From NCBI GenBank assembly GCA_036155555.1, contig JAYZVO010000125.1:1-32057 (forward strand): 32,057 nt of DNA, in the 5' to 3' direction. Below the pieces are notes generated by a model, which had not been told where the DNA came from, searched no databases, and worked only from the letters and a program-made list of their open reading frames with translations. Of the stretch, positions 14,835 through 28,165 are shown piece by piece. A program made the translations under genes and the position numbers. This DNA is from Myxococcota bacterium. GTDB lineage: Bacteria > Myxococcota_A > Bradymonadia > Bradymonadales > Bradymonadaceae. Each line of letters begins with the position of its first letter. Positions within the stretch are counted from its first letter, which is position 1.

Positions 14835-15710
14835 TCAATCGCCCACCAGCGCGTCGCGCGCATCCGAGAGCTTCGCCATCTCGTCATCGCCCAATGTCGG
14901 GTAATTGATCGGGAGGGACTTGAGCGTATCGACGATGATCTCGGCGACGCGCAAGCGCATGTAAGGCTTGTCGTCTGCCGGAATCGCATACCATGGAGCC
15001 CAGGGACGCGAGGTCTTGTCCAGCGCCTCCTGGTAAGCGTTCATGTAGGCGTCCCAGTGGCCGCGCTCCTTGACGTCGCTCATGGCAAACTTCCAGTTGC
15101 GCGCAGGATCATCTATGCGCTTGAGAAACCTTGCCTTTTGCTCATCACGCGAGACATTGAGCCAGAACTTGATGATGACGGTGCCGTTGCGCGCCAGGTG
15201 TTTTTCGTGGTCGCGGATCGACTCCAGGCGTTGCTCGAACAGCTCCTCGAGGGAGTCGGGCTTGAAGGGGAGGCGTTGGTTGTCGAGGATGCCCGGATGG
15301 ACGCGCACGACGAGGACTTCCTCGTAGTAAGAGCGGTTGAAGATACCGATCCTGCCGCGCTCGGGGAGGCACTTGGCGGTGCGCCAGAGGAAGTCGTGGT
15401 CGAGCTCCTCGGTCGAGGGCTGCTTGAAGGAGTAGACCTGACACCCGGCGGGGTTCACGCCGCTCATCACCGCGCGGATGGTGCCATCCTTTCCGGCCGC
15501 GTCCATCGCCTGAAAAATCAGCAAGACGGAGTGATGATCGCTGGCGTAGAGCACGCGCTGGAGATCGCGCAGCTCCTCGATCTTGTCCGCGAGCATGCGC
15601 TTGGCCTTCTTCTTCCCGGGCGCTTTCTTTGGTGGTTTGCAAGAAACCTTCGAGAGCTTGAAGGACCCGTCAAAGGGCACCAAAAGCTCGTTTTCGATCG
15701 CCTCGAACAT
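14835..15710 (-). CDS. ppk2: Polyphosphate kinase 2 (single-domain PPK2)
   Basis: 'IFQAMDAAGKDGTIR' Walker A. 'IFNRSYYEEVLVVRVHP'. 'FWLNVSRDEQKARFLKRIDDPARNWKF'. 'WYAIPADDK'. All are hallmark PPK2 motifs. Strong RBS AGGAGGAG. Confidence 0.85.
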   Translation of the reverse strand: MFEAIENELLVPFDGSFKLSKVSCKPPKKAPGKKKAKRMLADKIEELRDLQRVLYASDHHSVLLIFQAMDAAGKDGTIRAVMSGVNPAGCQVYSFKQPSTEELDHDFLWRTAKCLPERGRIGIFNRSYYEEVLVVRVHPGILDNQRLPFKPDSLEELFEQRLESIRDHEKHLARNGTVIIKFWLNVSRDEQKARFLKRIDDPARNWKFAMSDVKERGHWDAYMNAYQEALDKTSRPWAPWYAIPADDKPYMRLRVAEIIVDTLKSLPINYPTLGDDEMAKLSDARDALVGD

Positions 15711-16075: not shown

Positions 16076-16389
16076 ATGCCGCAACGGGGCGATCGACCAG
16101 TGGGATGGAACATCGCTCTGATGTCTCTCAACGTGGGAAGGGGATGGGCGCGGCCGATCTGGTTCGTCCAGATCGGCCGCGTCTTGTCTGTCAGAGGGTC
16201 GATAGTGTAGCTTGGCACGCACTTCAAACGAGGAAAGACTCGAAATGATGGGAGAGGTACGCGACATCGCTTGCAGGCGATGACGCGGTGGGTTTGAGAG
16301 CACGCGATGTGCATGTGCGATGAGCGCCAGAGCGATGGCGAGATTCCGCGCAGGCTTCGTGCTGGATTTGGTTGGAAAGAGAGGCGCAC

Positions 16390-17235
16390 ATGCAAGAATT
16401 TTTAACCATCATCCTCTCGATGCCCACGGTCGTATACACGGTGTTGATGGGACTCATGGCCCTCTACTGGGTCACGGTCATCATGGGCGCGGTGGATATC
16501 GACCTCTTCGATCTGGATGCAGATCTGGACGCAGATATCGACCTCGACGCGGACGTGGACCTGGATGTGGACGCGGATATCGACGTCGATGTCGACGCAG
16601 GCGTGGACACAGACATCGATCTGGACGCAGCGCATGGGAGCGCAGGGGTTGTCGTCTCGCTGCTCTCGGCGCTCGGCCTGGTGGGTGTGCCGCTGACGAT
16701 CTCGCTCAGCATCCTGGTGCTCTTTAACTGGTCATTGACCTTCTTGCTCGCCTACTCGCTGGGCGCAGGCAAGGAACCATTGAGCACCTTGTTCGGCGTG
16801 GCGGTCATGGGAGGGAGCTTGATCGCTTCGACGCTCTTGACCTCGATCGCGGTTCGTCCGATCCGCCCTCTCTTCCGCAGCAAGGCTGGCGCGAAAGCTG
16901 GCCGCGCGCTGGTGGGGATGACGATCAAGGTGACCTCGGGGAGCGTGACCGACACGTTCGGGCGCGCCGAGGGCACGTTGGATGACGCGACGATCAACTT
17001 CTCGATCCGATGCGAAGAGGAGAACAGCCTCTCCAAAGGCGATGACGCCCTGGTGATCGGATACGACGAGAACGCGCACGTTTACTACGTGGAGCCGCTC
17101 GATTCGATGTTGTCCGGGAAATCAAAGCACGGAGGGAAGAGCGCGCAGGAGCTCGAGGCTGTCTTCGACGAGCTCGAAGCTCAGCAAGAAGAAGAGGTCG
17201 AGGTCGGCGTCGAAGCCGAGGTCGACAAGGGCTAG
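16390..17235 (+). CDS. NfeD/YqiJ-like inner-membrane protein: N-terminal TM, acidic D-x repeat, 2-3 TMs, C-terminal OB-fold-like beta-barrel
   Basis: ATG 16390 is preceded by a purine-rich RBS; an alternative TTG start lies at 16372. Hydrophobic segments flank 'DIDLFDLDADLDADIDLDADVDLDVDADIDVDVDAGVDTDIDLDA'. The C-terminal 'LVGMTIKVTSGSVTDTFGRAEGTLDDATINFSIRCEEENSLSKGDDALVIGYDENAHVYYVEP' has the pattern of NfeD short-form OB domains. It lies immediately upstream of a flotillin gene, as in the yqiJ-yqiK and yuaF-floT arrangements. Confidence 0.65.
   Translation: MQEFLTIILSMPTVVYTVLMGLMALYWVTVIMGAVDIDLFDLDADLDADIDLDADVDLDVDADIDVDVDAGVDTDIDLDAAHGSAGVVVSLLSALGLVGVPLTISLSILVLFNWSLTFLLAYSLGAGKEPLSTLFGVAVMGGSLIASTLLTSIAVRPIRPLFRSKAGAKAGRALVGMTIKVTSGSVTDTFGRAEGTLDDATINFSIRCEEENSLSKGDDALVIGYDENAHVYYVEPLDSMLSGKSKHGGKSAQELEAVFDELEAQQEEEVEVGVEAEVDKG
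16495..16629 (+). repeat. Coding tandem repeat with 6-nt periodicity, (GAY-hydrophobic codon) about 22 times, encoding about 45 residues of alternating Asp and hydrophobic residues
   Basis: 'gatatcgacctcttcgatctggatgcagatctggacgcagatatcgacctcgacgcggacgtggacctggatgtggacgcggatatcgacgtcgatgtcgacgcaggcgtggacacagacatcgatctggacgca'. It also generates spurious antisense ORFs at 16402-16712. Confidence 0.85.
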
Positions 17236-17250
17236 GAGACGAACTTCGAC

Positions 17251-17307
17251 GTCACATCGTGCGGCGAGCAGAGAGAGCCGCGAGGCGTACTCGCCGCACG
17301 ATGTGAC
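17251..17307 (+). other. Strong hairpin (18-bp perfect stem GTCACATCGTGCGGCGAG/CTCGCCGCACGATGTGAC, 21-nt loop) 16 nt after the NfeD-like stop and 210 nt before the flotillin start
   Basis: Read directly. No U-tract follows. A candidate attenuator or RNA-processing/stability element setting the NfeD:flotillin ratio. Confidence 0.4.
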
Positions 17308-17518
17308 GCGATTGGAGATGGACGAAAGTGTCTATCAGCTGGTAAGTACGCCTCTCAACGAGAGGACATGAAAGGAAATGTGCCTTCGGTGTGCGTAGCT
17401 CGAGCGAGCGACTTCTCACCCCCGGGCGCTGGAAAGCAAGATACGACTCACGAGAAGCACTGGTGTCGCGGCGCGTTCGGGCGCGGTGCGGGCTTGAACC
17501 TGGAAGGAGGAAGAACTC

Positions 17519-19807
17519 ATGGGTGAAGGACCACTGTCTATTTTTGGCCTGGTGATCATCGGCGCGGTGGCGCTGCTGCTCATCGGCATCGTGGCGTTCA
17601 TCGCCAAGCTCTATCAAAAAGTCCTGCAAGGTCAGGCGCTGATCGTGAACAAGCCCAACGGGACCAAGGTCTTCTTCACGGGCGCCATCGTCGTCCCGCT
17701 CGTGCACCGTTCGGAGTACATGGACATCTCGGTCAAGACGATCGAGATCGAGCGCCAGGGGCATGACGGCTTGATCTGTAAGGACAACATCCGCGCGGAC
17801 ATCCGCGTGACGTTCTTCGTGCGCGTCAACGAGACCAGCGAAGACGTGCTCCGCGTGGCCAAGATGGTGGGTTGCCTTCGCGCATCCGACCAGGACACGA
17901 TCGAGGAGCTGTTCGGCGCCAAGTTCTCCGAGGCGCTCAAGACCGCCGGTAAGCAGTTCGAGTTCGAGGAGCTCTACCAGGCTCGTCAGGAATTCCGCGA
18001 TCAGATCATCGCCGTCATCGGCGATGACTTGAACGGCTACACGCTCGAGGATGTCGCCATCGATTACCTCGAGCAGACGCGCCGCGACTCGCTCGATCCG
18101 CACAACATCCTCGACGCCGAAGGTATCCGTAAGATCACCGAGCGCACCGAGGAGCAGCGCGTGCGCACCAACGAGCTCTCCAACTCGGCCAAGAAGAAGA
18201 TCGGTAAGGACGACCTGGAGACCAAGGTCGCCATGCTCGAGTACGAGCGCCAGCAGGCAGACGCCGAGGCTCGCCAGAAGCGCGAGATCGAGGTCGTCCG
18301 CGCCACGCAGCGCGCCTCGAGCGAGCAGGAGAAGGCCAAGCAGATCGCCCTCGAGCGCAAGGCACAGCTCGAAGCCGAGGAGTCGATCAACGTCCAGGCG
18401 ATCAACAAGAAGCGCGAGGAGCAGATGGCCGAGAAGGCCCGCGAGCGCGCGCTGATCATCGAGCAAGAATCGATCGAGAAGGAGAAGTCCCTCAAGATCA
18501 TCGAGCGCGAGCGCGAGGTCGAGATCAAGCGCATCCAGAAGGAGCGCGAGGTCGAGGTCGAGAAGAAAGAGATCGCCGAGGTCGTCTCCGACCGCATCGC
18601 CGTCGAGAAGTCGGTGGCGCAGGAAGAGGAGAACATCAAAGACTTGCGCGTGGTGGCAGACGCCGAGCGCAACAAGAAGGCGACCATCATCCGCGCCGAA
18701 GCCGAGGCGCAGCAAAAGCTCGTCGTCGACATCAAGGGCGCCGAGGCCAACGAGGAAGTCGCCAAGTACCGCGCTCGCCAGCGCATCATCGAGGCAGACG
18801 CTGACCTCGACGCGGCCGATCGCATCGCCAAGTCGAAGATCCGCATCGCTGAAGGTGTGCAAGCCGAGCAAGCCGCAGAAGGACTCGCCAAGGTGCGCGT
18901 CGAAGAGGCCGAGGCGAACGTCCTCGAGAAGCGCGGCAAGGTCGAAGCGACGGTCCTTCGCGAGAAGATGCAGGCCGAAGCGCAAGGTATGGAAGACCAG
19001 GGCATGACCAAGGTTCGCCTGCGTCAAGCCAACGCCGAAGCGCGCGAGCGTGAGGGCCAGGCAGAAGCCGACGTCACGCGCGGTCAGATGCTGGCCGAGG
19101 CCGCTGGTAAGGAAGAGCAGGACATGGTGCAGGTCCGCATCAAGCAGTCGATGGCGGACGCCATCGAGCGCGAAGGTCTGGCGCAAGCCAAGGTCATCCG
19201 CGAGAAGCTTTTGGCCGAGGCCGAGGGCTCACGCGAGCAAGGTCTGGCAGACGCTCAGGTCAAGGAAGCGCTGGCTGCTGCGACCGAGAAGCAAGGTCTG
19301 GCGGAAGCTCAGGTCATGCGTCAGAAGCTCGACGCGGAAGCATCCGGCATCGAGAAGAAGAACCTGGCACAGGCTGCGGGCATCCGCGAGCGCTTGTTGG
19401 CAGAGGCCGCTGGTATCGCCGAGAAGGCCGAGGCGATGAAGCACCTCGACGAGTACAGCCGCAAGCACGAGGAGTTCCGTCTGGCGCTCGAGCACGAGCG
19501 CGAGATCGCTCTCGAGCGACTCCGCACCAACATCGACATGGCGTCGGCGCAGGCATCGGTCTACGCAGAGGCGTTCAAGTCGGCCAACATCAACGTCGTC
19601 GGTGGAGACGAAGGGTTCTACAAGAACTTCCTCGGCTCGGTGTCCCTGGGGCACACCATCGACGGGTTCGTCGACAGCTCGGACACGGCGCGCGGGATTT
19701 TGGATCGCCTCGGCGTGGTCCTGCCCTCGGCGACGACCAACGGCGAGGCCAAGGCCGAGCCCGAGGACGCCGAGGTCGTGCCAGCTGAGGACGGCGCTGG
19801 CGAGTGA
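17519..19807 (+). CDS. Flotillin-family SPFH/Band-7 protein (YqiK/FloT-like) with an extended Glu/Ala-repeat C-terminal region
   Basis: RBS GGAAGGAGG. N-terminal TM (LVIIGAVALLLIGIVAFIA). SPFH core 'ALIVNKPNGTKVFFTGAIVVPLVHRSEYMDISVKTIEIERQG...DNIRADIRVTFFVRV...'. Long EA-rich heptad-like repeats follow (…REKLLAEAEG…, …RQKLDAEASG…, …RERLLAEAAG…), as in flotillins. 762 aa. Confidence 0.85.
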   Translation: MGEGPLSIFGLVIIGAVALLLIGIVAFIAKLYQKVLQGQALIVNKPNGTKVFFTGAIVVPLVHRSEYMDISVKTIEIERQGHDGLICKDNIRADIRVTFFVRVNETSEDVLRVAKMVGCLRASDQDTIEELFGAKFSEALKTAGKQFEFEELYQARQEFRDQIIAVIGDDLNGYTLEDVAIDYLEQTRRDSLDPHNILDAEGIRKITERTEEQRVRTNELSNSAKKKIGKDDLETKVAMLEYERQQADAEARQKREIEVVRATQRASSEQEKAKQIALERKAQLEAEESINVQAINKKREEQMAEKARERALIIEQESIEKEKSLKIIEREREVEIKRIQKEREVEVEKKEIAEVVSDRIAVEKSVAQEEENIKDLRVVADAERNKKATIIRAEAEAQQKLVVDIKGAEANEEVAKYRARQRIIEADADLDAADRIAKSKIRIAEGVQAEQAAEGLAKVRVEEAEANVLEKRGKVEATVLREKMQAEAQGMEDQGMTKVRLRQANAEAREREGQAEADVTRGQMLAEAAGKEEQDMVQVRIKQSMADAIEREGLAQAKVIREKLLAEAEGSREQGLADAQVKEALAAATEKQGLAEAQVMRQKLDAEASGIEKKNLAQAAGIRERLLAEAAGIAEKAEAMKHLDEYSRKHEEFRLALEHEREIALERLRTNIDMASAQASVYAEAFKSANINVVGGDEGFYKNFLGSVSLGHTIDGFVDSSDTARGILDRLGVVLPSATTNGEAKAEPEDAEVVPAEDGAGE

Positions 19808-19874: not shown

Positions 19875-19968
19875 AACATGACGATGTGGTCAAGCGGTTC
19901 CTGGCTCGGGACACGTTTGCCCTGAGGAAGGGCGCGGTGTTCTCCGTGTGAAAGCAGGTGAGAAGAAG

Positions 19969-22900
19969 ATGACGACCGAACCGATCGAGCAAGCAGAAGC
20001 GCAGGAGTCTGGCGACGCCGCGCTCGAGACAAGCAACTACGAGGTGATCCGCAAGCGCCTCGTGGATCAAGGCCGCGAGTTGGCCAAACGCGCCGAGTCC
20101 CTGAACCAAAAGCGTCAGGACTTCTTCGGCACGATCTCGATGGAGGTCGTCGGCAACCAGACGATCACCACCGAGAACAACTGCATCCCGCAGGACATCA
20201 TCAACCTCGGGGACTGCCTGCTCTTTGGCTACAACGTCCACCGCAAGATGTCCCAGACGCAGATCCCGGATGTCTTTAGCTTGCACCGATTTAGCAAGGA
20301 AGGAGAGGAGCTCAGTCTGCGGCATGTGCCGCAGGACACGGGCGAGAACTTCCTGAGCCAGCCGCAGTTCATGGAGGACTTCGACAAGCTCTACTTCTCC
20401 TTCAAGGACGCCTTCTTGCGCCAGCTGCGCCGGACCGAAGGGCGCCTGCTCGCGATCTTCCAGACGGGCTCGAAGCTCGAGGATATCCGCGTGCTGCGTT
20501 GGGCCGTCGACGCGCATGACAACGTCACCTACATCGACAACGCTGGCGAGAAAGACAACGTCCAGGCGCGCTCGCACGACTTCGCCTGGGTCGCCACGCG
20601 CCGCGAGGACATGATCACGGGGCGCCACCCGCACATCGCGATCAAGAACAAGGTCTTCGTCGAGACCGTCGGCGGCGACCTCACCATCAAGGTCGAGGAC
20701 AACACCGAAGATGGCGTCGGCGTCTACTCCGAGCCTGTCGAGGATCAAAACCAGGCGCTCGGAGACGCCGAGATCTTTTACGCCGAGGTCGGCGCGCTGA
20801 TCCTGCTCAAGATCCGCCCCTACCGAGAGGACAACTGGCGTTACCTGGTGTTTAACACCCTGACCAAGACGGCCGCGCGCATCGACTCCATCGGGCAGTC
20901 CTGCGTGGCCTTGCCCGAGGACCACGGGATCATCTTCCCCGGCGGTTATGTGTTGGAGTCTGGCGAGGTCAAGACCTTCGAGCACGACACGCGCGATATG
21001 CGGATCGCCGAGACGCGCCGTTCGCCAAACGGCGAGGACGTGCTCTTTGCCTTCACGCGTCCGCAGGATGGGCAATACCTGTTGCTCTCCTACAACCTGA
21101 TCCGCAAGGAAGTCCTGAACCCGATCCTGTGCCACGGCTACTCGATCTTTGACGATGGCACGATGATCATCTTCCGCTCGACGGGGGACCAACAAACGCG
21201 CCACCACCCGATGCAAGTCTGGGGGACGCCGTTTTTGTCGGACGAGTACGCGGCGCAGATCCCATCGGATGGATCGCTGCTCTCCAAGATCGGCAACGCC
21301 GAGCTGGTGCGCGGCATTTCGGATGGCTTGACCATCCGAAAAATGATCAACAACCAGGAGCCGACCACCGAGATCTACACCTCGATCATCTCGGCCGCCG
21401 AGCGCATGATCGACGCCTACTACTGGATCGGCGAATCAGAAGCGGGCGACATGCGCGCGCCACTGCGCGAGGTCGTCAAGACGGCGACGTTGATTATCGA
21501 GGAGTTCGAGAAAGTCCGCGCGATGCGCCAGAACGCACGCGAGGCGCTCCGTGAAGCGGAGCGCGAGCAGTCGCGCCTCTTTGGCGATATTCGCTACGCG
21601 AACTGGCGCGAGATCGGGCGCTTTGTCGACGGATTGGATGGGCTGCGCAGCCAGCGAGGTCGCCTGATCACGCTGCGCGAAATGAAGTACATGCAGGTCG
21701 AGCGCATCGACGAGCTCGAGCAGGAGGTCATCGACCACTACGACAAACTCTCGAAGGCGACCGTCAGTTTCTTGCTCGGTGAGGGCTCGCTCTCGACCTA
21801 CCGCGCGAAAATCGACGCCGTGATCAAGGGGATCGAGGAGATCCAGACGACCGTCGAGGCCACAAAGATCAAGGAGGAGCTCGACACCATCGGCGAGGGG
21901 CTCAACCTCCTGACCGAGGTCATCAGCGGACTCAAGATCGAGGACCCCACCGCGCGCACGCAGATCCTCGAGAACATCGCCGAGGTGCTCGGGCAGCAGA
22001 ACCGCGCCCGCGCCATGCTCGACGCCAAGAACCGCGCGCTGCTCGAGACGGAGGGGCGCGCCGAATTCGCCGTGCAATTCCAGCTGCTCGGGCAGTCGGT
22101 CACGAGCGCCATCTCCATGGCCGAGACGCCCGAGCGATGCGACGAGCAGCTCGAGCGCATGATGGTCCAGCTCCAGGAGATGGAGAGCCGCTTTAGCGAG
22201 TTCGACATGTTTCTGGCGCAGCTGACCGAGAAGCGCGAGGAGATCTACGAGGTCTTCGAGACGCGCAAGCAGCAACTGATCGAGGCGCGCCAGCGCAAGG
22301 CATCGACGATCAACCAGGCCGCCGAGAAGATCCTGGCGGGCATCCAGCGCCGCGCGCGCAAGATGGAGGATGTCGAGGCGCTCAACGCTTATTTTGCCGC
22401 CGATGCCATGGTCATCAAGATCCGCGAGATGGCCACGCAGCTTCGCGAGTTGAAAGAGCCCGTCAAGGCCGACGACCTCGAGAACCAGCTCAAGGCCACG
22501 CGCGATCAATCGATCCGCACGTTGCGCGACAAGCTCGACCTGTTCGAAGGGGGCGACGCCGTCATCAAGCTCGGCAAGCACCGCTTTAGCATCAACACAC
22601 AGTCGCTCGAGCTCACGATGGTGCCCCGTGATAACGAGGTTCGCCTCCACATCACTGGCACCGACTTCTACGAGCAGGTCGAGGACAAGGAGTTCCTCGA
22701 GACGCGCTACCTCTGGGATCAACAGCTGATCTCGGAGACGCGCGACGTGTACCGTGGCGAGTATCTGGCGGCGTGCATCCTCGAGGATGCACGCACCAAG
22801 GCCAAGGGCTACACGATCCCGGATCTCTTCGATCTCTCGGTCAAGGACGACGAGCTGTTGCTGGTCGTGCGCAAGTACATCGAGGAGCGCTACGACGAGG

Positions 22901-25713
22901 GTTACGAGCGCGGCGTGCACGACACGGACACGACGCAGATCCTGACCGCGTTGCTCGGGCTCTACATCACGGCTGGGTTGCTCCGGTTCGGGTCGAAGGC
23001 GCGCGCGTTGGCGACGCTCTACTGGGCCACCGAGCCAGAAGAGCTCGAGGTCGAGAAGACATCAGCGATGACGCTCGAGCAGCGTCGCAAGGCCAAGGAG
23101 TCCCCGGCGCAAAGACGCCGCAAGCTGCTCGTTCGCCGCGCGCAATCATTCGGGAGGTTGAGAAAGACCTTCTCGTCGGCCTCCGCGGTCGCGGAGCTTC
23201 GCGCCGAGGTCGCCAGAGAACTCGGCGGCTTCTGCGAAGAGCATGGCCTGGATGACATCTTCTCGGGTCGCGTGCGCGTCGAAGCTGCCGACTACCTCAT
23301 CGAGGAGCTAGCAGCTGGCGAGCACCCACACTTTATTTTGAACTCCGAGGCGGAGCAGCTCGCGCGCAAGTTCTTCGACCACCTGGACCTGAGCAACTCG
23401 CGCAAGGACTTCGAGGATGATCTCGAAACATTGACCGGCGAGCTCGAGGCGAGCTGGGAGTTGGCGAGCAGCTGGCTCGCCGCATACACCGAGCAACGCC
23501 GCGAGGACGAAACGCCCGTCGGGTACCTGATGGACGAGACCATCGCGTACCTGATCACGAGCGGACAGATCGAGCGCGAGATCTCTTCGGCAAAGACCGA
23601 GACCCAGGTCAAGGAGTTGCTCGGGCAGCACCCGAGGATCGTCTCGCAAGTGCTCACGATCCGCCTGGACGAGTTCCTCTCGAGGTTGGATCGCTACATC
23701 CACGAGCGCGCGCCGGAGTACCGCGCCTACCGCAAGCTCTCGCACACGGTGCTCGACCGAGTGCGCAAGAGGTTGCGTCTGGACGAGCTCAAGCCGCGCG
23801 TGCTCTCGACGTTCGTGCGTAACCGGCTTATCGACGAGGTTTATCTGCCGTTGATCGGTGACAACCTCGCCAAGCAGATGGGCTCGGTGGGCGAATCAGG
23901 GCGCTCGGACAGGCAAGGCTTGCTGCTGCTCATCTCGCCGCCAGGTTACGGCAAGACGACGTTGATGGAGTATGTGGCGAACCGCCTCGGGCTGACGTTC
24001 ATGAAGATCAACGGCCCCGCGATCGGGCACCACGTGGTCTCGCTCGATCCGAGCGAGGCGCCAAACGCCACGGCGCGGCAGGAGGTCGAGAAGATCAACC
24101 TCTCGCTGCGCATGGGCAACAACGTGATGCTTTACCTGGATGATATCCAGCACTGTAACCCGGAGTTGTTGCAGAAGTTCATCTCGTTGTGTGATGCCAC
24201 GCGTCGCATCGAGGGTGTCTGGGATGGCCAGACAAAGACCTACGACCTTCGCGGCAAGCGCTTCTCGGTGGTCATGGCGGGGAACCCGTACACCGAGACC
24301 GGCGAGCGATTCCAGATCCCGGACATGCTCGCCAACCGCGCGGACACCTACAACCTGGGTGATATCCTGGAAGGTTCGCAGGATGCGTTCGCGCTCAGTT
24401 ACATCGAGAACGCGCTCACATCGAACCCTGTGCTCGCGCCTCTGTCGAACAGGGAGAAGGAGGACATTCACCTCTTTATCCGCATGGCGCAGGGCGAGGA
24501 TATCGCGCTGACGGACATGAAGTATAGCTACTCTGCGGTCGAGGCGAACGAGATCGTGACCGTTCTGAAGAAGCTGTTTGTCTGTCAGGATGTCCTGTTG
24601 CAGGTCAACCAGGCCTACATCGAGTCGGCGTCACAGGATGATGCTTATCGCACCGAGCCGCCGTTCAAGCTCCAGGGTTCGTACCGCAACATGACCAAGC
24701 TGGCCGAGAAGGTCGTCTCTGCCATGAACGATCAGGAGCTCGAGGCGCTGATCGATGACCACTACCTTGGCGAATCGCAGACGTTGACCACGGAAGCGGA
24801 GCAGAACTTGCTCAAGCTCAAGGAGATCCGAGGGCGTCTCACCGCAGAGGAGAAGGAGCGCTGGGAGTCGATCAAGAAAGAATACCGCCGTCGCAAGATG
24901 ATGGGTGGTGGGGACAATGATCCTGTGAGTCGGGTCGCCGGACCGATCAGCTCGTTGGTGCAGCGCGTCGAGGAGCTCCAGGGCGTGTTCCAGGGCAACA
25001 GCCAACTCAACACACCGCTCGAGGGTATCCGGGACGCGATCACCACAGCGGTCGCGCAACTCCAGACCGAGGGCGTGGCGTCGAAGAGCAACGAGGGCCA
25101 GCAAAACACAGGCTTGAGCCCTCAGGTGATCGAGCAACTCACCGCAGCGATCGCGGCGATGGGAGCGAGCAACAGCAACAACGGCAAGCACTCTGACCAG
25201 GTCGAGGCGTTGTTGCAGCGGCAGACGTTGATGTTCGAGGGCGCCTTCGGCGCGATCGAGAAGTTGGCGGATGCACAGGCGAACTCGAACCGCCAGAGCG
25301 CGGATACGCTGCGCTCGATCGAGAAGCTGATGCAGTCAGCTCCTGTGGCGCTCAAGACACCACCTCCGGGCTCGTTCGGAGGAGCACCTGTTGCGGGTCA
25401 GGGGCACACAATGCCAGCATCCTCATCGGGAGATGGTGGGGGAGGCTTTGGCGATCGTCCTTTGACGGGGGTCAAGAAGCGGCTTCCATTCAAGGAAGCG
25501 CGCAAACAAACCGCCGAGCACGAGGCGATCTCTCGCGATGATCCTCCGACCGAGGATGAGGCGAGCAGCGCACCAGCAAACACCTCCTCGCCGCAGGAGG
25601 CGCCTTTGACAAACGAGGCAAATCCAGCGCGAGCACAGGAGCCAAACGAAGCACAAGGTGGTAAAAAGAAAGGGAAGGTTCGCCTGGAGCCGCCATTTGA
25701 CACCGAAGATTGA
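19969..25713 (+). CDS. Giant (1,914-aa) protein: about 470-aa N-terminal beta-rich domain, about 800 aa coiled-coil/helical region, single AAA+ ATPase module of the MoxR/dynein (AAA_5) type, and about 440-aa helical plus low-complexity C-terminal tail
   Basis: SD AGGTGA 7 nt before ATG 19969; a GTG start at 19948 is also possible. Walker A 'LLLISPPGYGKTTLMEYVANRLG' at nt about 23944-23961. Walker B/helix 'NNVMLYLDDIQHCNPELLQKFISLCD' at about 24128-24143. Sensor-1-like 'RFSVVMAGNPYTE'. 'IPDMLANRADTYNL' resembles the MoxR 'LPEALLDRF' region. Heptad-rich segment about 21400-22550. The C-terminus is Q/S/N/G/P-rich and ends KKKGKVRLEPPFDTED. No protease, nuclease or VWA motifs were seen. Confidence 0.8.
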   Translation: MTTEPIEQAEAQESGDAALETSNYEVIRKRLVDQGRELAKRAESLNQKRQDFFGTISMEVVGNQTITTENNCIPQDIINLGDCLLFGYNVHRKMSQTQIPDVFSLHRFSKEGEELSLRHVPQDTGENFLSQPQFMEDFDKLYFSFKDAFLRQLRRTEGRLLAIFQTGSKLEDIRVLRWAVDAHDNVTYIDNAGEKDNVQARSHDFAWVATRREDMITGRHPHIAIKNKVFVETVGGDLTIKVEDNTEDGVGVYSEPVEDQNQALGDAEIFYAEVGALILLKIRPYREDNWRYLVFNTLTKTAARIDSIGQSCVALPEDHGIIFPGGYVLESGEVKTFEHDTRDMRIAETRRSPNGEDVLFAFTRPQDGQYLLLSYNLIRKEVLNPILCHGYSIFDDGTMIIFRSTGDQQTRHHPMQVWGTPFLSDEYAAQIPSDGSLLSKIGNAELVRGISDGLTIRKMINNQEPTTEIYTSIISAAERMIDAYYWIGESEAGDMRAPLREVVKTATLIIEEFEKVRAMRQNAREALREAEREQSRLFGDIRYANWREIGRFVDGLDGLRSQRGRLITLREMKYMQVERIDELEQEVIDHYDKLSKATVSFLLGEGSLSTYRAKIDAVIKGIEEIQTTVEATKIKEELDTIGEGLNLLTEVISGLKIEDPTARTQILENIAEVLGQQNRARAMLDAKNRALLETEGRAEFAVQFQLLGQSVTSAISMAETPERCDEQLERMMVQLQEMESRFSEFDMFLAQLTEKREEIYEVFETRKQQLIEARQRKASTINQAAEKILAGIQRRARKMEDVEALNAYFAADAMVIKIREMATQLRELKEPVKADDLENQLKATRDQSIRTLRDKLDLFEGGDAVIKLGKHRFSINTQSLELTMVPRDNEVRLHITGTDFYEQVEDKEFLETRYLWDQQLISETRDVYRGEYLAACILEDARTKAKGYTIPDLFDLSVKDDELLLVVRKYIEERYDEGYERGVHDTDTTQILTALLGLYITAGLLRFGSKARALATLYWATEPEELEVEKTSAMTLEQRRKAKESPAQRRRKLLVRRAQSFGRLRKTFSSASAVAELRAEVARELGGFCEEHGLDDIFSGRVRVEAADYLIEELAAGEHPHFILNSEAEQLARKFFDHLDLSNSRKDFEDDLETLTGELEASWELASSWLAAYTEQRREDETPVGYLMDETIAYLITSGQIEREISSAKTETQVKELLGQHPRIVSQVLTIRLDEFLSRLDRYIHERAPEYRAYRKLSHTVLDRVRKRLRLDELKPRVLSTFVRNRLIDEVYLPLIGDNLAKQMGSVGESGRSDRQGLLLLISPPGYGKTTLMEYVANRLGLTFMKINGPAIGHHVVSLDPSEAPNATARQEVEKINLSLRMGNNVMLYLDDIQHCNPELLQKFISLCDATRRIEGVWDGQTKTYDLRGKRFSVVMAGNPYTETGERFQIPDMLANRADTYNLGDILEGSQDAFALSYIENALTSNPVLAPLSNREKEDIHLFIRMAQGEDIALTDMKYSYSAVEANEIVTVLKKLFVCQDVLLQVNQAYIESASQDDAYRTEPPFKLQGSYRNMTKLAEKVVSAMNDQELEALIDDHYLGESQTLTTEAEQNLLKLKEIRGRLTAEEKERWESIKKEYRRRKMMGGGDNDPVSRVAGPISSLVQRVEELQGVFQGNSQLNTPLEGIRDAITTAVAQLQTEGVASKSNEGQQNTGLSPQVIEQLTAAIAAMGASNSNNGKHSDQVEALLQRQTLMFEGAFGAIEKLADAQANSNRQSADTLRSIEKLMQSAPVALKTPPPGSFGGAPVAGQGHTMPASSSGDGGGGFGDRPLTGVKKRLPFKEARKQTAEHEAISRDDPPTEDEASSAPANTSSPQEAPLTNEANPARAQEPNEAQGGKKKGKVRLEPPFDTED

Positions 25714-25777: not shown

Positions 25778-26917
25778 ATGTCCTACCACTACTTGTTGAT
25801 CGCCCTGCTCCTCGTCGCTCCTGCGGCGACTGCGTGCACGAATAAGGCGAAGAAGGCCGAGGAGCCCGTTCGCCTGACACGTGAAGAGGACTGGACCGTC
25901 GAGACGTTCGAGATCTCTGAGAGCGGCGTGTGGATCGAAGGGGACGAGCGCATCCAGCTGCCGTTCTGGGCGGTCGGCGGTGTGATCCGCGTCGATGATA
26001 AGCTGATCCCCAAGCGCGTGTTCAACGAGGTCGCGCGCCAGCAAGCCCACCGAAACATCGCCAGACACTTGCACAGAAGTTACGCGCAGATCGTCCTGGA
26101 TCGCATCGTGTCGGGCTACTTGCTCGACAAGGCCGCCGAGGATGCTGGCGTGGTCATCGAGGAAGAGGCTGTCGATGCCGAGGTGGAGAAGTCTCTGTCG
26201 AAGCTCGAAACCCAGGAAGATATCGACGCCTACTTCGACTCCGTGGGGCTCGACGCCAGGAGCTACCGCGATTTGATCCGACGGCAGCTCTACCACAAGC
26301 AATTCCTGACCGAGGTTTACGAAGTCCGCGTCACCGAGCAAGAAGCGCAAGATCACTACAAGCGCTACAAGCGCCGCTATGACAAGAAGGCCGAGGTCAA
26401 GGCGAGCCACATCCTGTTCAAGTTCAGCAGCAGCCGCCCTTCCCCCGAGGAGGTCGAGAAGAAGCGCAAGGAGGCAGTGTCAGTCGCGCAAATGGCGAGG
26501 CAACCTGGCGCGAACTTCGCGGAGTTGGCCAGGCAATACTCGGAGGGACCGTCGGGGCCAAAAGGAGGAGACCTGGGTTATTTCCAGGCGAACCGGATGG
26601 TGCGCCCCTTCTCGGACAAGGCGTTCTCGATGCAAGTTGGCGAGGTGAGCGAGCCGGTCAAGACGCGCTTCGGGTGGCATGTCATAAGGGTCGAGGACAG
26701 GAAACCTGCGCGACTTATCCCATTCGAGGAGGTGCGTGAGGAGCTCGAAATGGAGTTGCTCCAGAAGAAGCTCGTGCAGGCACAGAATGTGTTCCTGCGT
26801 CGAGCCAAGAGCGAGCATGACATCGAATACCTGACACGCAACATCCGTTATCACGAGAAGAAAGCCCCCTCGACGCAGCCGCGCCGATACCCGGAGTCGC
26901 AGCCGCGCTACCCCTGA
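25778..26917 (+). CDS. Parvulin-type peptidyl-prolyl cis-trans isomerase lipoprotein (SurA/PrsA-like)
   Basis: Signal/lipobox 'LLIALLLVAPAATAC'. Parvulin domain 'KASHILFKF...ELARQYSEGPSGPKGGDLGYFQANRMVRPFSDKAFSMQVGEVSEPVKTRFGWHVIRVEDRKP'. Confidence 0.8.
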   Translation: MSYHYLLIALLLVAPAATACTNKAKKAEEPVRLTREEDWTVETFEISESGVWIEGDERIQLPFWAVGGVIRVDDKLIPKRVFNEVARQQAHRNIARHLHRSYAQIVLDRIVSGYLLDKAAEDAGVVIEEEAVDAEVEKSLSKLETQEDIDAYFDSVGLDARSYRDLIRRQLYHKQFLTEVYEVRVTEQEAQDHYKRYKRRYDKKAEVKASHILFKFSSSRPSPEEVEKKRKEAVSVAQMARQPGANFAELARQYSEGPSGPKGGDLGYFQANRMVRPFSDKAFSMQVGEVSEPVKTRFGWHVIRVEDRKPARLIPFEEVREELEMELLQKKLVQAQNVFLRRAKSEHDIEYLTRNIRYHEKKAPSTQPRRYPESQPRYP

Positions 26918-27061
26918 ACCTGAGCGAGAATGGAGCGCCTCGCGTGTGCGGCGAGAGAGACGTGTTCGTTTCGCTCGCTCGCCTGCGGTGGCCACTCTGA
27001 ACCGTGTCCAAACCATCGCGGTGATTTTACGCGAGCCCCTTTCGTGCCCGAGGTACCCTGC

Positions 27062-28165
27062 ATGTTTCGTCCATCGATAGTGCTTCTGATTCTGTCCATG
27101 TGCGCGCTCTCAGCCTGCGCGGGTCAAAAGAAAGCGCAGGAAGATCCTGCGCCGTTGACCAACAACGAGAAGCCAACGGACCTCTTCAGGGTCACGCCCG
27201 AGGGCGTGTTGACGCGCGGCGACACCTCGATGGAGCTTTTGTTCTGGGCTGTGGGGCCTGTCGCGACCGTCGATGGAGAGGCGATCACGGAGGGGCACTT
27301 CAACCGCGAATCCTACAAGATGCAGAAGGTCACCGGGGGGAGGATTCCCCCTGAATATGCAACGATCTATGTGCAGAAGCTCGTGGAGCAGATCGTGGAG
27401 AAGACCTTGCTCGGGCGCGAGGTCGAGGCAGACGGCATCGAGGTACCAAAGGATCTGGTCGACGCAGAGCTCCAACAGATGCGCGAGTCCTCGCCCAGGG
27501 TCTTCGAGATGATCACGGGTGACGGGAAGATGACGATGGAGGAGCTCCGCGAGGAGGTTCGCCAACAGCTCGCCATCCGTTTGTTGTTGAAGAAGCGTTA
27601 TGGTTTGGAGGTAAGCGAAGAAGAGATCGCCAGGTACTACGATGAGAACGCGTACAGGTATGAGCAAGAGGAGCAAGTGAGCGCGCGCCACATCCTGTTC
27701 AAGCTCGACAGTGAGGCTTCTCCTGACGAAATCGAGGCCGCGCGCAAACGCGCCGAAGAGGTCATGTTGCTCGCGAAGCAGCCGGACGCAGACTTCGGGG
27801 AGTTGGCCAAACAATACTCGGAGGGACCGTCAGCGCCAAAAGGAGGAGACCTGGGTTACTTCCCAGCGAAGCGGATGGTGGAGCCCTTTTCGAAGGCTGC
27901 CTTCGCGCTCCAGATCGGAGAGGTGAGCGAGCCGGTCAAGACGCAGTTTGGATGGCATCTGATCAAGGTCGAAGGGAAGAAACCTGCGCGCACGGTCCCC
28001 TTTGAAGAGGTCAAAGATCAAATCCGCGAGCAGCTCGAAGCCAAGCAGCTCCGAAACGCCTACGGCACGCTTCTTGACGAGGTAAAAGCCAAGGCCGAGG
28101 TCACGATGCTCTTCGAGAACATCCGGTATCGCGGGGACGTGAGCAGCGAGACGCCCGAGCCCTGA
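27062..28165 (+). CDS. Parvulin-type PPIase lipoprotein, a tandem paralog of the previous gene
   Basis: Start at ATG 27062 ('MFRPSIVLLILSMCALSACAG', a lipoprotein signal) rather than the in-frame 26930 extension. Parvulin domain 'SARHILFKL...ELAKQYSEGPSAPKGGDLGYFPAKRMVEPFSKAAFALQIGEVSEPVKTQFGWHLIKVEGKKP'. Over 60% identical to the upstream paralog in this domain. Confidence 0.8.
   Translation: MFRPSIVLLILSMCALSACAGQKKAQEDPAPLTNNEKPTDLFRVTPEGVLTRGDTSMELLFWAVGPVATVDGEAITEGHFNRESYKMQKVTGGRIPPEYATIYVQKLVEQIVEKTLLGREVEADGIEVPKDLVDAELQQMRESSPRVFEMITGDGKMTMEELREEVRQQLAIRLLLKKRYGLEVSEEEIARYYDENAYRYEQEEQVSARHILFKLDSEASPDEIEAARKRAEEVMLLAKQPDADFGELAKQYSEGPSAPKGGDLGYFPAKRMVEPFSKAAFALQIGEVSEPVKTQFGWHLIKVEGKKPARTVPFEEVKDQIREQLEAKQLRNAYGTLLDEVKAKAEVTMLFENIRYRGDVSSETPEP

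What the first reader, a model, noticed from the sequence alone, without database searches (positions are those of the whole stretch)
16495..16629. A 45-residue perfectly alternating Asp/hydrophobic repeat (D-φ)n in the NfeD-like membrane protein, encoded by a 6-nt-periodic DNA repeat
Seen in sequence: 'DIDLFDLDADLDADIDLDADVDLDVDADIDVDVDAGVDTDIDLDA' lies between the first TM helix and the next TM bundle. Inference: an alternating D/φ pattern would form a beta-strand or hairpin with one fully acidic face, a candidate divalent-cation (Ca2+/Zn2+) binding or membrane-surface-interacting element. I recall that E. coli YqiJ-type proteins carry short D/H-x-D stretches, but a 22-unit run is extreme. 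At the DNA level the 6-nt periodicity makes the tract slippage-prone, so its length may vary between strains and act as a contingency locus.
Basis: partly seen in the sequence, partly recalled or inferred. Interest (0 to 1): 0.55.

Follow-up and report, generated by a model that had tools for sequence, protein, structure and literature searches.

The report
Acidic repeat loop in flotillin partner
The Asp/hydrophobic repeat is real, but it is one lineage's version of a fast-evolving, strongly acidic loop found throughout the YqiJ/NfeD family of flotillin partner proteins, so it is an ordinary family trait of unknown function rather than a unique element or a genetic switch.

Summary
The 45-residue tract sits exactly at 16495-16629, as residues 36-80 of a 281-aa protein (16390-17235, +) from a Myxococcota MAG. 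It is far beyond chance: an uninterrupted run of 15 D-x units against a maximum of 9 in 20,000 shuffles. It is not perfectly alternating.

The protein is a YqiJ/NfeD2-type flotillin partner, with three TM helices and a C-terminal NfeD OB fold. It heads a conserved operon: yqiJ-like, flotillin, then a giant DUF3686/AAA+ ATPase.

Asp identity is held by selection on the protein. Asp codons show 8-10 synonymous but only 0-1 nonsynonymous changes between lineages. DNA repetitiveness is no more than the peptide forces.

In a sample found without using the tract, 99% of family members have a net-negative low-complexity loop here. The repeat type varies: (D-phi)n, (DGAL)n, (AEGLADAA)n or His-rich. 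AlphaFold2 predicts the tract disordered, and K/R counts place it in the cytoplasm.

Length changes by in-frame multiples of 6 nt. One example is a 60-nt deletion between 10-nt direct repeats in a sister lineage. No length variation was seen in the window's own lineage, and nothing indicates phase variation.

The most likely role is a disordered polyanionic, cation-binding or electrostatic loop under the flotillin assembly. This is inferred, not shown.

The parts
16390..17235 (+). yqiJ/NfeD2-like gene, 281 aa (inner-membrane partner of a flotillin)
   Evidence: ORF listed. 210 homologues were found, some named DUF1449, YqiJ family, OB-fold-containing or NfeD-like by their sources. hhalign against E. 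coli YqiJ gives probability 97%, E 7e-11. 47 of 89 aligned homologues hit PF21001 YqiJ_N. The protein is identical to MEC9399588.1 from a Myxococcota bacterium MAG.
16426..16485 (+). TM helix 1 (residues 13-32)
   Evidence: AlphaFold2 helix 13-32 with pLDDT above 90. Part of PF21001 in homologues.
16489..16518 (+). Conserved TM1-exit motif AVDIDLFDLD (residues 34-43), the family-wide anchor that precedes the variable repeat
   Evidence: Position-specific composition over 195 homologues: D36 in 154, D41 in 157, D43 in 140, and F or L at position 40 in 130. The motif is also kept in members whose repeat is of another type. pLDDT is higher here, with short helices at 37-46.
16495..16629 (+). The (Asp-hydrophobic)n tract, residues 36-80: 21 Asp, net charge -21, no Lys or Arg
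   Evidence: sequence; chance test; Asp codons: 8-10 synonymous against 0-1 nonsynonymous changes; pLDDT below 50 for residues 48-82.
16639..16671 (+). Short amphipathic helix (residues 84-94) before the invariant Pro101
   Evidence: AlphaFold2 helix 84-94. P101 is invariant in the 89-sequence alignment. The flank before TM2 carries at least one K/R in 62% of family representatives.
16693..16854 (+). TM helices 2 and 3 (residues 102-123 and 133-155)
   Evidence: AlphaFold2 helices 102-123 and 133-173. This region aligns with E. coli YqiJ.
16921..17097 (+). C-terminal NfeD-type OB-fold domain (residues 178-236)
   Evidence: Five strands in the model. Foldseek PDB hits: 8z5g QmcA-YbbJ (E 1e-4), 2k14 YuaF (TM 0.70), 2exd, 3wwv. 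Profile against PDB sequences: YuaF, E 0.024.
17143..17226 (+). C-terminal acidic helix (residues 252-279, SAQELEAVFDELEAQQEEEVEVGVEAEV)
   Evidence: AlphaFold2 helix 252-279. Kept only in close relatives.
17519..19807 (+). Flotillin/YqiK-type SPFH gene, 762 aa, operon partner
   Evidence: Band_7 PF01145, E 2.4e-9, when the N-terminal 294 aa are scanned alone. tblastn against E. coli yqiK gives 30% identity, E 5e-32. It lies immediately downstream of the yqiJ-like gene in nearly all related loci.
19948..25713 (+). Giant DUF3686-DUF7902-AAA+ ATPase, about 1,910-1,921 aa, third gene of the conserved module (start codon uncertain)
   Evidence: Pfam PF12458 (E 2.5e-188), PF25472, AAA_5 and AAA. 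Found downstream of the flotillin gene in essentially every locus whose contig reaches that far, across at least 7 phyla.

Best explanation
What it is.
The tract is the TM1-TM2 loop of a YqiJ/NfeD2-type protein. This protein is the small membrane partner encoded just upstream of a flotillin (YqiK-like SPFH) gene. Here it belongs to a three-gene module: yqiJ-like, flotillin, giant DUF3686/AAA+ ATPase.

Shown:
- The loop is a protein-level, selection-maintained polyanion. Asp positions are conserved while their codons drift. The intervening positions accept any of V, A, L, I, M, F or T.
- The whole family carries a low-complexity, net-negative or His-rich repeat of 7-120 residues at this position. 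The repeat type differs between lineages.
- The tract grows and shrinks by in-frame indels of 6n nucleotides at short direct repeats.

Inferred:
- The loop lies on the cytoplasmic face, on the same side as the OB fold and directly under the inner leaflet. It would therefore sit inside or beneath the flotillin assembly.
- It is intrinsically disordered in the isolated monomer.

Proposed mechanism (inference, roughly 35-40% likely).
The loop is a multivalent, low-affinity binding or electrostatic element for cations such as Mg2+, Ca2+, transition metals or polyamines. Oligomerisation with flotillin would concentrate many copies. If the stoichiometry resembled the 26 QmcA-YbbJ heterodimers, that would be several hundred carboxylates. 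Such a cluster could set the local ionic or electrostatic environment of the flotillin-bounded membrane patch, or report on it.

It is not a phase-variable switch.

The confidence of 0.45 is for the whole statement: about 0.9 for the identity and family-trait part, and about 0.35-0.4 for the cation/electrostatic role.
For: Identity:
- Searches place the protein in the YqiJ family.
- Searches show three TM helices plus an NfeD OB fold.
- Searches show synteny with flotillin and the AAA+ gene in about 50 loci from Myxococcota, Bacteroidota, Actinomycetota, Planctomycetota, Acidobacteriota, Firmicutes and Proteobacteria. The same operon type is described.

Protein-level selection:
- Between the window, L002 and L060, Asp codons show 8-10 synonymous but only 0-1 nonsynonymous differences.
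- Hydrophobic-slot codons show 9-12 nonsynonymous differences yet stay hydrophobic or small.
- Asp codon usage equals the rest of the window, and DNA repetitiveness equals the synonymous-resampling null.

Family-wide property (query lacking the tract):
- 1,243 clusters match at E<=1e-3.
- Among 136 full-length representatives the loop is net negative in 99%, at most -5 in 95%, with a median of -12.
- Repeat flavours vary.

Hints of ligand chemistry:
- Acidic slots in (D-phi) runs are 96% Asp and 4% Glu.
- Hymenobacter and E. coli have mixed D/H stretches. 11% of representatives have at least 5 His.
- Knock-out of the flotillin gene of the homologous SO1376 (DUF1449)/SO1377 pair in Shewanella changed free iron and H2O2 sensitivity (PMC1468410).

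Topology:
- Mean K+R counts are 3.55 after TM3 and 1.01 in the flank before TM2.
- They are 0.13 at the N-terminus and 0.37 in the TM2-TM3 loop.
- NfeD-SPFH cages face the cytoplasm (PMC13086221).

Disorder:
- pLDDT is below 50 with no secondary structure for residues 48-82, in a model whose overall mean is 84.6.
Against: - No binding was measured, and no tool here can model ions or the oligomer.
- Some family members have Lys-containing repeats such as (EGAAKGVL)n, or nearly no loop at all: E. coli has about 10 acidic/His residues and Glycomyces about 12-15 loop residues. A large cation-binding capacity therefore cannot be essential to the family's core function.
- The Shewanella phenotype concerns the flotillin gene and may be indirect, as its authors say.
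- A low pLDDT may reflect a poorly alignable repeat rather than true disorder.
- Topology is predicted, not measured.
Confidence: 0.45

Rival explanations
1. First reader's model. The alternating D/hydrophobic pattern folds into an amphipathic beta-strand or hairpin. One face is fully acidic and binds Ca2+/Zn2+. The hydrophobic face lies on the membrane surface, possibly as an intermolecular sheet in the oligomer.
For: - The pattern is a strict polar/non-polar alternation over 15+4 units.
- Beta-branched V and I make up 41% of hydrophobic slots, and Asp is strongly preferred over Glu, in 117 homologous runs.
- Ala tends to alternate with larger residues: adjacent A-A pairs occur at 0.038 against 0.074 expected.
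Against: - AlphaFold2 predicts no strand and gives pLDDT below 50.
- 27% of hydrophobic slots are Ala, a weak membrane anchor.
- Orthologous operons replace the tract with period-4 or period-8 Gly/Ala-rich repeats, or with His-rich repeats, which cannot form such a strand.
- 21 uncompensated carboxylates next to an anionic inner leaflet oppose membrane adsorption unless cations bridge them.
Confidence: 0.12
2. Passive spacer. The loop is a tolerated low-complexity linker whose length and sequence drift by replication slippage. Its only requirement is to be flexible, soluble and unable to insert into the membrane. No ligand is bound.
For: - Length ranges from 7 to 120 residues, and repeat types are many, within one orthologous family.
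- E. coli YqiJ and Glycomyces homologues have almost no loop.
- Indels arise at short direct repeats.
- Otherwise identical proteins differ by 20 residues in the tract.
Against: - Composition is tightly constrained. 99% of loops are net negative with a median K+R count of 0.
- Asp codons show synonymous but almost no nonsynonymous change.
- A purely neutral linker would not keep Asp at 96% against Glu at 4%.
- The recurrent His-rich variants also call for an explanation.
Confidence: 0.25
3. AAA+ handle. The unstructured acidic loop is the docking site or threading substrate for the co-encoded giant DUF3686/AAA+ ATPase. The ATPase would remodel or extract the YqiJ-like protein or the flotillin assembly.
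For: - The ATPase gene follows yqiJ-like and flotillin in essentially all loci long enough to show it.
- The association is noted in the PSP comparative-genomics paper.
- E. coli, which lacks the ATPase gene at this locus, has the shortest loop.
- AAA+ machines engage disordered segments (general knowledge).
Against: - About 30 Hymenobacter species keep the ATPase but have loops of only 20-30 residues.
- The loop is internal, between two TM helices, not a free end.
- Gly/Ala-rich and acidic low-complexity sequences are generally poor grips for AAA+ pore loops (general knowledge).
- No co-variation was tested.
Confidence: 0.1
4. Contingency locus or artefact. The tract is a slippage-prone simple-sequence repeat that switches expression or function at high frequency, or it is a mis-assembled repeat.
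For: - The DNA has 6-nt periodicity.
- Length differences occur between proteins at least 90% identical in several clades.
- A 60-nt deletion lies between 10-nt direct repeats.
Against: - The longest exact repeat is 12 nt and equals the null. TRF matches are only 70-76%.
- Every indel seen is a multiple of 6 nt, so the frame is never lost.
- No length variant occurs among 8 full-length variants of the window's lineage on about 40 contigs.
- P0002 and P0003 are each found unchanged on more than 20 contigs.
- Independent assemblies agree on the sequence.
Confidence: 0.03

Closest known systems
E. coli YqiJ (DUF1449; Pfam YqiJ_N PF21001 + YqiJ_OB PF07290), encoded upstream of the flotillin YqiK
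   Same: The architecture matches: TM1, a loop, an amphipathic helix ending in 'G-x-x-P', TM2, TM3 and an OB fold. The gene order yqiJ then flotillin also matches. hhalign gives probability 97%.
   Different: E. coli has only LDAHLDHYDS in place of the 45-residue tract. It is 209 aa against 281 and lacks the C-terminal acidic helix. No DUF3686/AAA+ gene lies downstream. The window protein itself falls below both Pfam thresholds.
B. subtilis YuaF (NfeD2) with FloT; S. aureus NfeD with FloA
   Same: Each is a small membrane protein with a cytoplasmic OB fold that partners a flotillin. Fold match to 2k14 has TM-score 0.70. Co-evolution of NfeD2 with SPFH2 is described in PMC2636767. FloA-NfeD binding through the OB fold is described in PMC11222466.
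   Different: No acidic repeat loop is reported in those papers. Sequence similarity is marginal (E 0.024).
E. coli QmcA-YbbJ SPFH-NfeD cage (PDB 8z5g)
   Same: It is the best structural match of the whole model (E 1e-4). It provides the only solved picture of an NfeD inside an SPFH cage, with 26 heterodimers facing the cytoplasm.
   Different: YbbJ belongs to the NfeD1 branch paired with a stomatin-type SPFH, not a flotillin. Whether it has a comparable acidic TM1-TM2 loop was not examined here, and none is known to me (own knowledge).
His/Asp-rich variable cytosolic loops of metal transporters (RcnA, CDF/ZnT, ZIP families). Comparison from my own knowledge, not tested here
   Same: These are low-complexity, length-variable loops between TM helices. 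They are rich in metal-liganding Asp and His and are thought to bind, buffer or sense cations. The YqiJ family shows both Asp-rich and His-rich versions.
   Different: There is no homology. The YqiJ-type protein has no transport domain. The window's tract has a single His nearby and is almost purely Asp.
[quoted passage not shown]
   Same: It has the same (Asp-hydrophobic)n alternation. It forms anionic beta-sheets that adsorb Ca2+ (PMC9078708).
   Different: It is synthetic, uses Phe throughout, and works at interfaces or as a hydrogel. The natural tract uses 27% Ala and is predicted to be disordered.
Ser-Asp repeats of staphylococcal MSCRAMM adhesins (SdrC/D, ClfA/B)
   Same: These are dipeptide repeats with Asp at every second position. 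They were the only NCBIfam hits for the tract (E about 0.01).
   Different: Scores are 11-13 bits against cut-offs of 999-2500. Those repeats are extracellular stalks with Ser rather than hydrophobic residues. The resemblance is compositional only.

Membership tests
YqiJ / DUF1449 family | Direct match of the protein to Pfam PF21001 (YqiJ_N) or PF07290 (YqiJ_OB) above the gathering score | tested here: not met
   hmmscan of the full protein, and of residues 81-281 alone, returns no family even at E<=10.
YqiJ / DUF1449 family | Homology to bona fide members, shown by a transitive or profile-profile search | tested here: met
   47 of 89 aligned homologues hit PF21001. The profile of those 89 against E. 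coli YqiJ gives hhalign probability 97.1%, E 6.9e-11, over TM2 to the OB fold. Sources name hits 'DUF1449 family' or 'YqiJ family protein'.
YqiJ / DUF1449 family | Architecture of three TM helices followed by a C-terminal OB fold | tested here: met
   AlphaFold2 model: helices 13-32, 102-123 and 133-173, with a five-stranded domain at 178-236. Mean pLDDT 84.6.
YqiJ / DUF1449 family | Gene lies directly upstream of a flotillin (YqiK/FloT-type SPFH) gene | tested here: met
   The downstream ORF 17519-19807 has a Band_7 domain and matches E. coli yqiK at E 5e-32. The same order holds in about 50 related loci.
NfeD superfamily | C-terminal domain adopts the NfeD OB fold | tested here: met
   Foldseek against PDB: 8z5g YbbJ, 2k14 YuaF (rmsd 2.7, TM 0.70), 2exd (TM 0.60) and 3wwv (TM 0.72) are among the best hits.
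NfeD superfamily | Match to Pfam PF01957 (NfeD C-terminal domain) | tested here: not met
   No hit for the window protein. One distant homologue (P0116) has a sub-threshold hit at E 0.017.
NfeD superfamily | Physical association with the SPFH partner | not testable with these tools
   Only conserved gene adjacency is available.
Simple-sequence contingency (phase-variation) locus | Long, perfect or near-perfect tandem DNA repeat of a short unit | tested here: not met
   TRF finds 70-76% matches with a best score of 74. The longest exact repeat is 12 nt and its copies are not adjacent. This equals the synonymous-resampling null of 12.7 +/- 2.2.
Simple-sequence contingency (phase-variation) locus | Changes in repeat number switch the reading frame or expression | tested here: not met
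   The unit is 6 nt. All observed length differences are even numbers of residues: 2, 4, 6, 8, 14 or 20 aa.
Simple-sequence contingency (phase-variation) locus | Length heterogeneity within one population or lineage | tested here: inconclusive
   None was found among 8 full-length variants of the window's cluster at 90% identity or above. A sister lineage has a 60-nt deletion allele in 2 independent runs. No read-level data were available.
Amphipathic beta-sheet (alternating polar/non-polar) element | Strict two-residue alternation over a length sufficient for a strand | tested here: met
   15 uninterrupted D-x units plus 4 more after Gly71.
Amphipathic beta-sheet (alternating polar/non-polar) element | Adopts beta structure | tested here: not met
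   The AlphaFold2 monomer shows no strands and pLDDT below 50 for residues 48-82. Cation-induced or oligomer-induced folding cannot be tested with these tools.
MSCRAMM Ser-Asp repeat adhesins | Score above the NCBIfam cut-off | tested here: not met
   11-13.5 bits against cut-offs of 999-2500.

The most novel reading that the evidence does not exclude
The flotillin / YqiJ-like / AAA+ module builds a membrane-attached nanocompartment. Its interior is lined by hundreds of loop carboxylates, or imidazoles in the His-rich lineages. The loops would act as a high-capacity buffer or sensor for cations such as Mg2+, Ca2+, Fe2+ or polyamines. On loading, the (D-phi)n version would switch from disorder to an amphipathic beta-sheet lying on the inner leaflet. 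That switch would couple local ion status to the organisation of the flotillin microdomain. The variety of repeat flavours would then reflect adaptation to different cations or habitats.
Probability: 0.1. Interest if true: 0.75.

Novelty: new member of a known kind. Interest (0 to 1): 0.3.

Why it matters
What bacterial flotillins and their NfeD partners do is still unsettled. This window adds one more YqiJ-type partner, which is not news in itself.

The family comparison it prompted gives a concrete lead that I did not find in the papers I could search. The TM1-TM2 loop of YqiJ-type proteins is almost always a net-negative or His-rich low-complexity repeat that evolves fast in length and in repeat type. 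In this lineage Asp identity is under purifying selection.

That points to an electrostatic or cation-related role at the cytoplasmic face of flotillin assemblies. It fits the unexplained iron and oxidative-stress phenotype of the Shewanella SO1376/SO1377 pair. It can be tested cheaply with peptides and loop-swap alleles.

It also removes the more exciting readings. This is not a unique element, not a demonstrated beta-hairpin, and not a phase-variable switch.

Tried and rejected
- Direct Pfam and NCBIfam scans of the 281-aa protein gave nothing useful. Pfam found no family. NCBIfam gave only compositional Ser-Asp-repeat hits far below cut-off.
- The full-length flotillin also failed Pfam until its N-terminal 294 aa were scanned alone.
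- A PADLOC scan of the three operon proteins found no defence-system match.
- Rfam over the whole window found no family. The promoter/terminator scan around the operon found nothing above shuffle expectation.
It worked with 8 close sequences.
- The afdb50 fold library was unavailable.
- A literature search for DUF3686 returned zero papers. Of the 25 listed papers that mention YqiJ (39 hold the term), I read the two that looked relevant; neither describes the loop, and none of the listed titles or abstracts suggests it.
- Loop length against flotillin length across 49 loci gave Spearman rho 0.43, p 0.002. I reject this as evidence for a 'ruler'. The points are phylogenetically non-independent (about 30 Hymenobacter), and two flotillin ORFs in the set are obviously truncated.
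- Contigs encoding identical P0002 or P0003 show no nucleotide change in the tract. This is uninformative, because the look-up is by exact protein identity and few changes are expected in 144 nt.
- The alternative-frame and antisense ORFs over the tract (16320-16727 +, 16517-16696 +, 16402-16635 -, 16464-16712 -) are by-products of the periodic sequence. The codon-substitution pattern supports only the yqiJ-like frame.
Full report
1. THE OBSERVATION

Window 16495-16629 translates in the frame of the ORF 16390-17235 (+) to DIDLFDLDADLDADIDLDADVDLDVDADIDVDVDAGVDTDIDLDA, 45 residues, which are residues 36-80 of a 281-aa protein. The start codon at 16390 (MQEFL...) matches the conserved N-terminus of homologues.

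The alternation is strong but not perfect. D36 and D38 are in one phase. A double hydrophobic L39-F40 then shifts the phase. D41 to D69 form 15 uninterrupted D-x units. Gly71 replaces an Asp, and four more units follow. In all there are 21 Asp, no Lys or Arg, and one polar residue (Thr74) in a hydrophobic slot.

This is far outside chance. Shuffling the same protein 20,000 times gives a mean longest run of 2.9 and a maximum of 9. No other open frame of at least 100 aa in the window exceeds 5.

The identical protein is on 10 contigs from three repositories, and near-identical variants are on dozens more. It is therefore not an assembly artefact. The window is a Myxococcota MAG contig (MEC9399588.1).

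2. THE DNA

TRF reports periods 6, 12, 18 and 24 with only 70-76% matches. The longest exact repeat inside the tract is 12 nt, and its two copies are 39 nt apart. Re-drawing synonymous codons for the same peptide from the window's own codon usage gives 12.7 +/- 2.2 nt, so the DNA is no more repetitive than the peptide forces it to be. Asp codons in the tract (12 GAC, 9 GAT) match the rest of the window (62% GAC).

Overlapping ORFs in other frames and on the minus strand are by-products of the periodicity.

3. THE HOST GENE AND ITS NEIGHBOURHOOD

Pfam finds nothing for the protein directly. A homology search, however, gives 210 hits. Several are named DUF1449, YqiJ family, OB-fold-containing or NfeD-like by their sources. 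Further evidence:
- 47 of 89 aligned homologues hit PF21001 YqiJ_N, a model that spans TM1 to TM3 and so includes the tract position.
- The profile of those 89 sequences aligns with E. coli YqiJ at hhalign probability 97%, E 7e-11.
- An AlphaFold2 model (mean pLDDT 84.6) shows TM helices 13-32, 102-123 and 133-173, a short amphipathic helix 84-94 before the invariant Pro101, a five-stranded domain at 178-236 and a C-terminal helix.
- The best PDB fold matches of that model are the NfeD chain of the E. coli QmcA-YbbJ complex (8z5g), YuaF (2k14, TM 0.70), PH0471 (2exd) and 3wwv.

The next gene (17519-19807) is a flotillin. It has a Band_7 domain when its N-terminus is scanned alone and matches E. 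coli yqiK at E 5e-32. The gene after that (19948-25713) is a protein of about 1,900 aa with DUF3686, DUF7902 and AAA+ domains.

The order yqiJ-like, flotillin, AAA+ recurs in essentially every one of about 50 related loci that is long enough to show it. These come from Myxococcota, Bradymonadales, about 30 Hymenobacter species, Glycomyces, Planctomycetaceae, Thermoanaerobaculia, Oscillospiraceae and Janthinobacterium. The operon type has been described before in a comparative-genomics study of PSP systems. The NfeD2-flotillin pairing was described in 2009.

The 'NfeD-like membrane protein' part of the finding is therefore correct.

4. SELECTION ACTS ON THE PEPTIDE, NOT ON THE DNA REPEAT

I made codon alignments of the window gene with two related lineages, L002 (encoding P0002) and L060 (encoding P0003). 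The proteins are 83-88% identical.
- Asp codons show 8-10 synonymous but only 0-1 nonsynonymous differences.
- Codons in the hydrophobic slots show 9-12 nonsynonymous differences, yet remain A, V, L, I, M or T.
- Gaps are units of two codons.

Over 117 homologous runs the acidic slot is 96% Asp and 4% Glu. The other slot is V 31%, A 27%, L 19%, I 10%, M 4%, F 4% and T 3%. Ala tends to alternate with larger residues.

5. THE TRACT IS A FAMILY TRAIT, AND ITS FORM IS NOT CONSERVED

In the first search almost every homologue had a (D-x)n run at the same place, from 3 to 31 units. That search is biased, because the tract itself supplies the words used to collect candidates.

I therefore searched 1.84 billion cluster representatives with residues 81-281 only. 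This gave 1,243 clusters at E<=1e-3. Among 136 full-length representatives:
- the loop core is 7-120 residues, median 50;
- it is net negative in 99%, at most -5 in 95%, with a median of -12;
- the median K+R count is 0.

Only 15% have a (D-x) run of at least 8 units, and 1.5% of at least 15. The rest carry other low-complexity repeats at the same position: (DGAL)n, (AEGLADAA)n, (EGAAKGVL)n, or His-rich (HGxG)n.

The same diversity appears inside orthologous three-gene operons:
- (DGAL)n in L010 and L012;
- (EAKAEALG)n in L013, L015 and L016;
- D/H-rich stretches of 20-30 residues in Hymenobacter.

E. coli YqiJ has only LDAHLDHYDS.

What the family conserves is the TM1-exit motif (here AVDIDLFDLD), the position of the loop, its low complexity and its negative or metal-liganding character. 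The two-residue alternation is not conserved. The window's tract is in the upper tail for length, but it is not unique.

6. LENGTH EVOLUTION

No length variant was found among the 8 full-length sequence variants of the window's own cluster at 90% identity or above. The only difference in the tract is one V/L exchange. P0002 and P0003 each recur unchanged on more than 20 contigs.

Elsewhere, proteins at least 90% identical differ by 2-22 residues, always an even number and always inside the tract. The clearest case is P0133. It is identical to P0003 at all 264 aligned residues but lacks 20 residues of the tract. At the DNA level this is a 60-nt deletion bounded by the 10-nt direct repeat GATGTCGACG, and it appears in two independent sequencing runs.

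The tract therefore evolves by ordinary slippage or microhomology-mediated indels that keep both the reading frame and the alternation. Nothing indicates reversible high-frequency switching, and no indel can change the frame.

7. WHERE THE LOOP LIES AND WHAT SHAPE IT HAS

With three TM helices, the tract is on the same side of the membrane as the OB fold. Across the 136 representatives, mean K+R counts are as follows:
- 3.55 after TM3;
- 1.01 in the seven residues before TM2;
- 0.13 at the N-terminus;
- 0.37 in the TM2-TM3 loop.

By the positive-inside rule, the tract and the OB fold are cytoplasmic. This agrees with NfeD-SPFH cages that protrude into the cytoplasm. This topology is predicted, not measured.

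AlphaFold2 gives pLDDT below 50 and no secondary structure for residues 48-82. That argues against a stable hairpin in the monomer. It cannot exclude cation-induced or oligomer-induced order.

8. MOST LIKELY MECHANISM

I commit to the following reading. The tract is a disordered, cytoplasmic, juxtamembrane polyanion that many copies of the protein present under the flotillin assembly. It acts as a multivalent, low-affinity cation-binding or electrostatic element.

Support is indirect:
- the composition is constrained (net negative, Asp far more common than Glu, almost no K/R);
- His-rich and mixed D/H variants recur;
- deleting the flotillin gene of the homologous SO1376/SO1377 pair in Shewanella altered free iron and H2O2 sensitivity;
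- designed (Phe-Asp)n peptides adsorb Ca2+.

Evidence against it:
- Lys-containing repeat variants exist;
- some members, such as E. coli and Glycomyces, have almost no loop;
- no binding data exist.

I put about 0.9 on the identity and family-trait part and about 0.35-0.4 on the cation/electrostatic role.

9. COMPARISON AND NOVELTY

The gene is a new member of the known YqiJ/DUF1449 (NfeD2) family in a known operon type. The D-x tract is common among its relatives in sequence databases.

I found no paper that describes it. Of the 25 listed papers that mention YqiJ (39 hold the term), I read the two that looked relevant, and the single paper mentioning DUF1449; none describes the loop, and none of the listed titles or abstracts suggests it. 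No paper mentions DUF3686.

The family-wide, fast-evolving acidic or His-rich loop is a modest, testable lead about what flotillin partners do. It is not a surprising new kind of element.

Noticed in passing
window 17250-17308: A perfect 19-nt inverted repeat (CGTCACATCGTGCGGCGAG / CTCGCCGCACGATGTGACG) with a 21-nt spacer starts 15 nt after the yqiJ-like stop codon. No T-run follows it. The inner part (GCGGCGAG...CTCGCCGC) is kept in two related lineages. It may be an attenuating or stabilising hairpin between the yqiJ-like and flotillin genes.
   Followed up: partly
window 17310-17371: This block of the 283-nt intergenic region is about 90% conserved across three lineages (GATTGGAGATGGACG...CTGGTAAGTACGCCTCTCAAYGAGAGGAC). 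That is much higher than its surroundings. It contains a CCTCTC/GAGAGG hairpin and a possible small ORF (ATG at 17318). The ORF is 17 codons here and is called as 38 aa in L060-L062 and L064. It could be a small peptide or an RNA element. There is no Rfam match.
   Followed up: partly
window 19948-25713: A protein of about 1,900 aa with DUF3686 (E 2.5e-188), DUF7902 and AAA+ domains always follows the flotillin gene, across at least 7 phyla. It is 97% identical between lineages whose YqiJ-like proteins are only 85% identical. No paper in the library mentions DUF3686. Pfam's description, 'ATPase involved in DNA repair', fits poorly with this membrane-module context.
   Followed up: partly
window 17519-19807: The 762-aa flotillin gives no Pfam hit at all when scanned whole. 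Band_7 is found at E 2.4e-9 when only residues 1-294 are scanned. The long Glu/Lys/Ala-rich coiled-coil region probably triggers HMMER's bias correction. Automatic annotation would leave this gene, and its relatives, without a domain.
   Followed up: partly
L013, L015, L016, L021 (about locus positions 9100-9300 in L013); P0158, P0262, P0277, P0286, P0291: In orthologous operons the same loop is replaced by quite different, sometimes nearly perfect, tandem repeats. Examples are (EAKAEALG)n, (AEGLADAA)x10, (DGVDGAL)n, (EGAAKGVL)n and His/Gly-rich runs. The near-perfect ones look like recent expansions.
   Followed up: partly
window 17143-17226: The YqiJ-like protein ends in a second acidic segment (SAQELEAVFDELEAQQEEEVEVGVEAEVDKG). 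It is predicted as a confident helix after the OB fold. It is present only in the closest relatives.
   Followed up: no
window 14835-15710 (-): A polyphosphate kinase 2 gene (PF03976, E 1e-66) lies upstream of the yqiJ-like gene and is transcribed divergently. It keeps that place in the closest relatives (L002-L004, L006; on the other strand in L008) but not in more distant loci.
   Followed up: no
window 25778-26917 and 26930-28165: Two adjacent paralogous genes for SurA-N plus PPIC-type peptidyl-prolyl isomerases lie directly downstream of the AAA+ gene.
   Followed up: no
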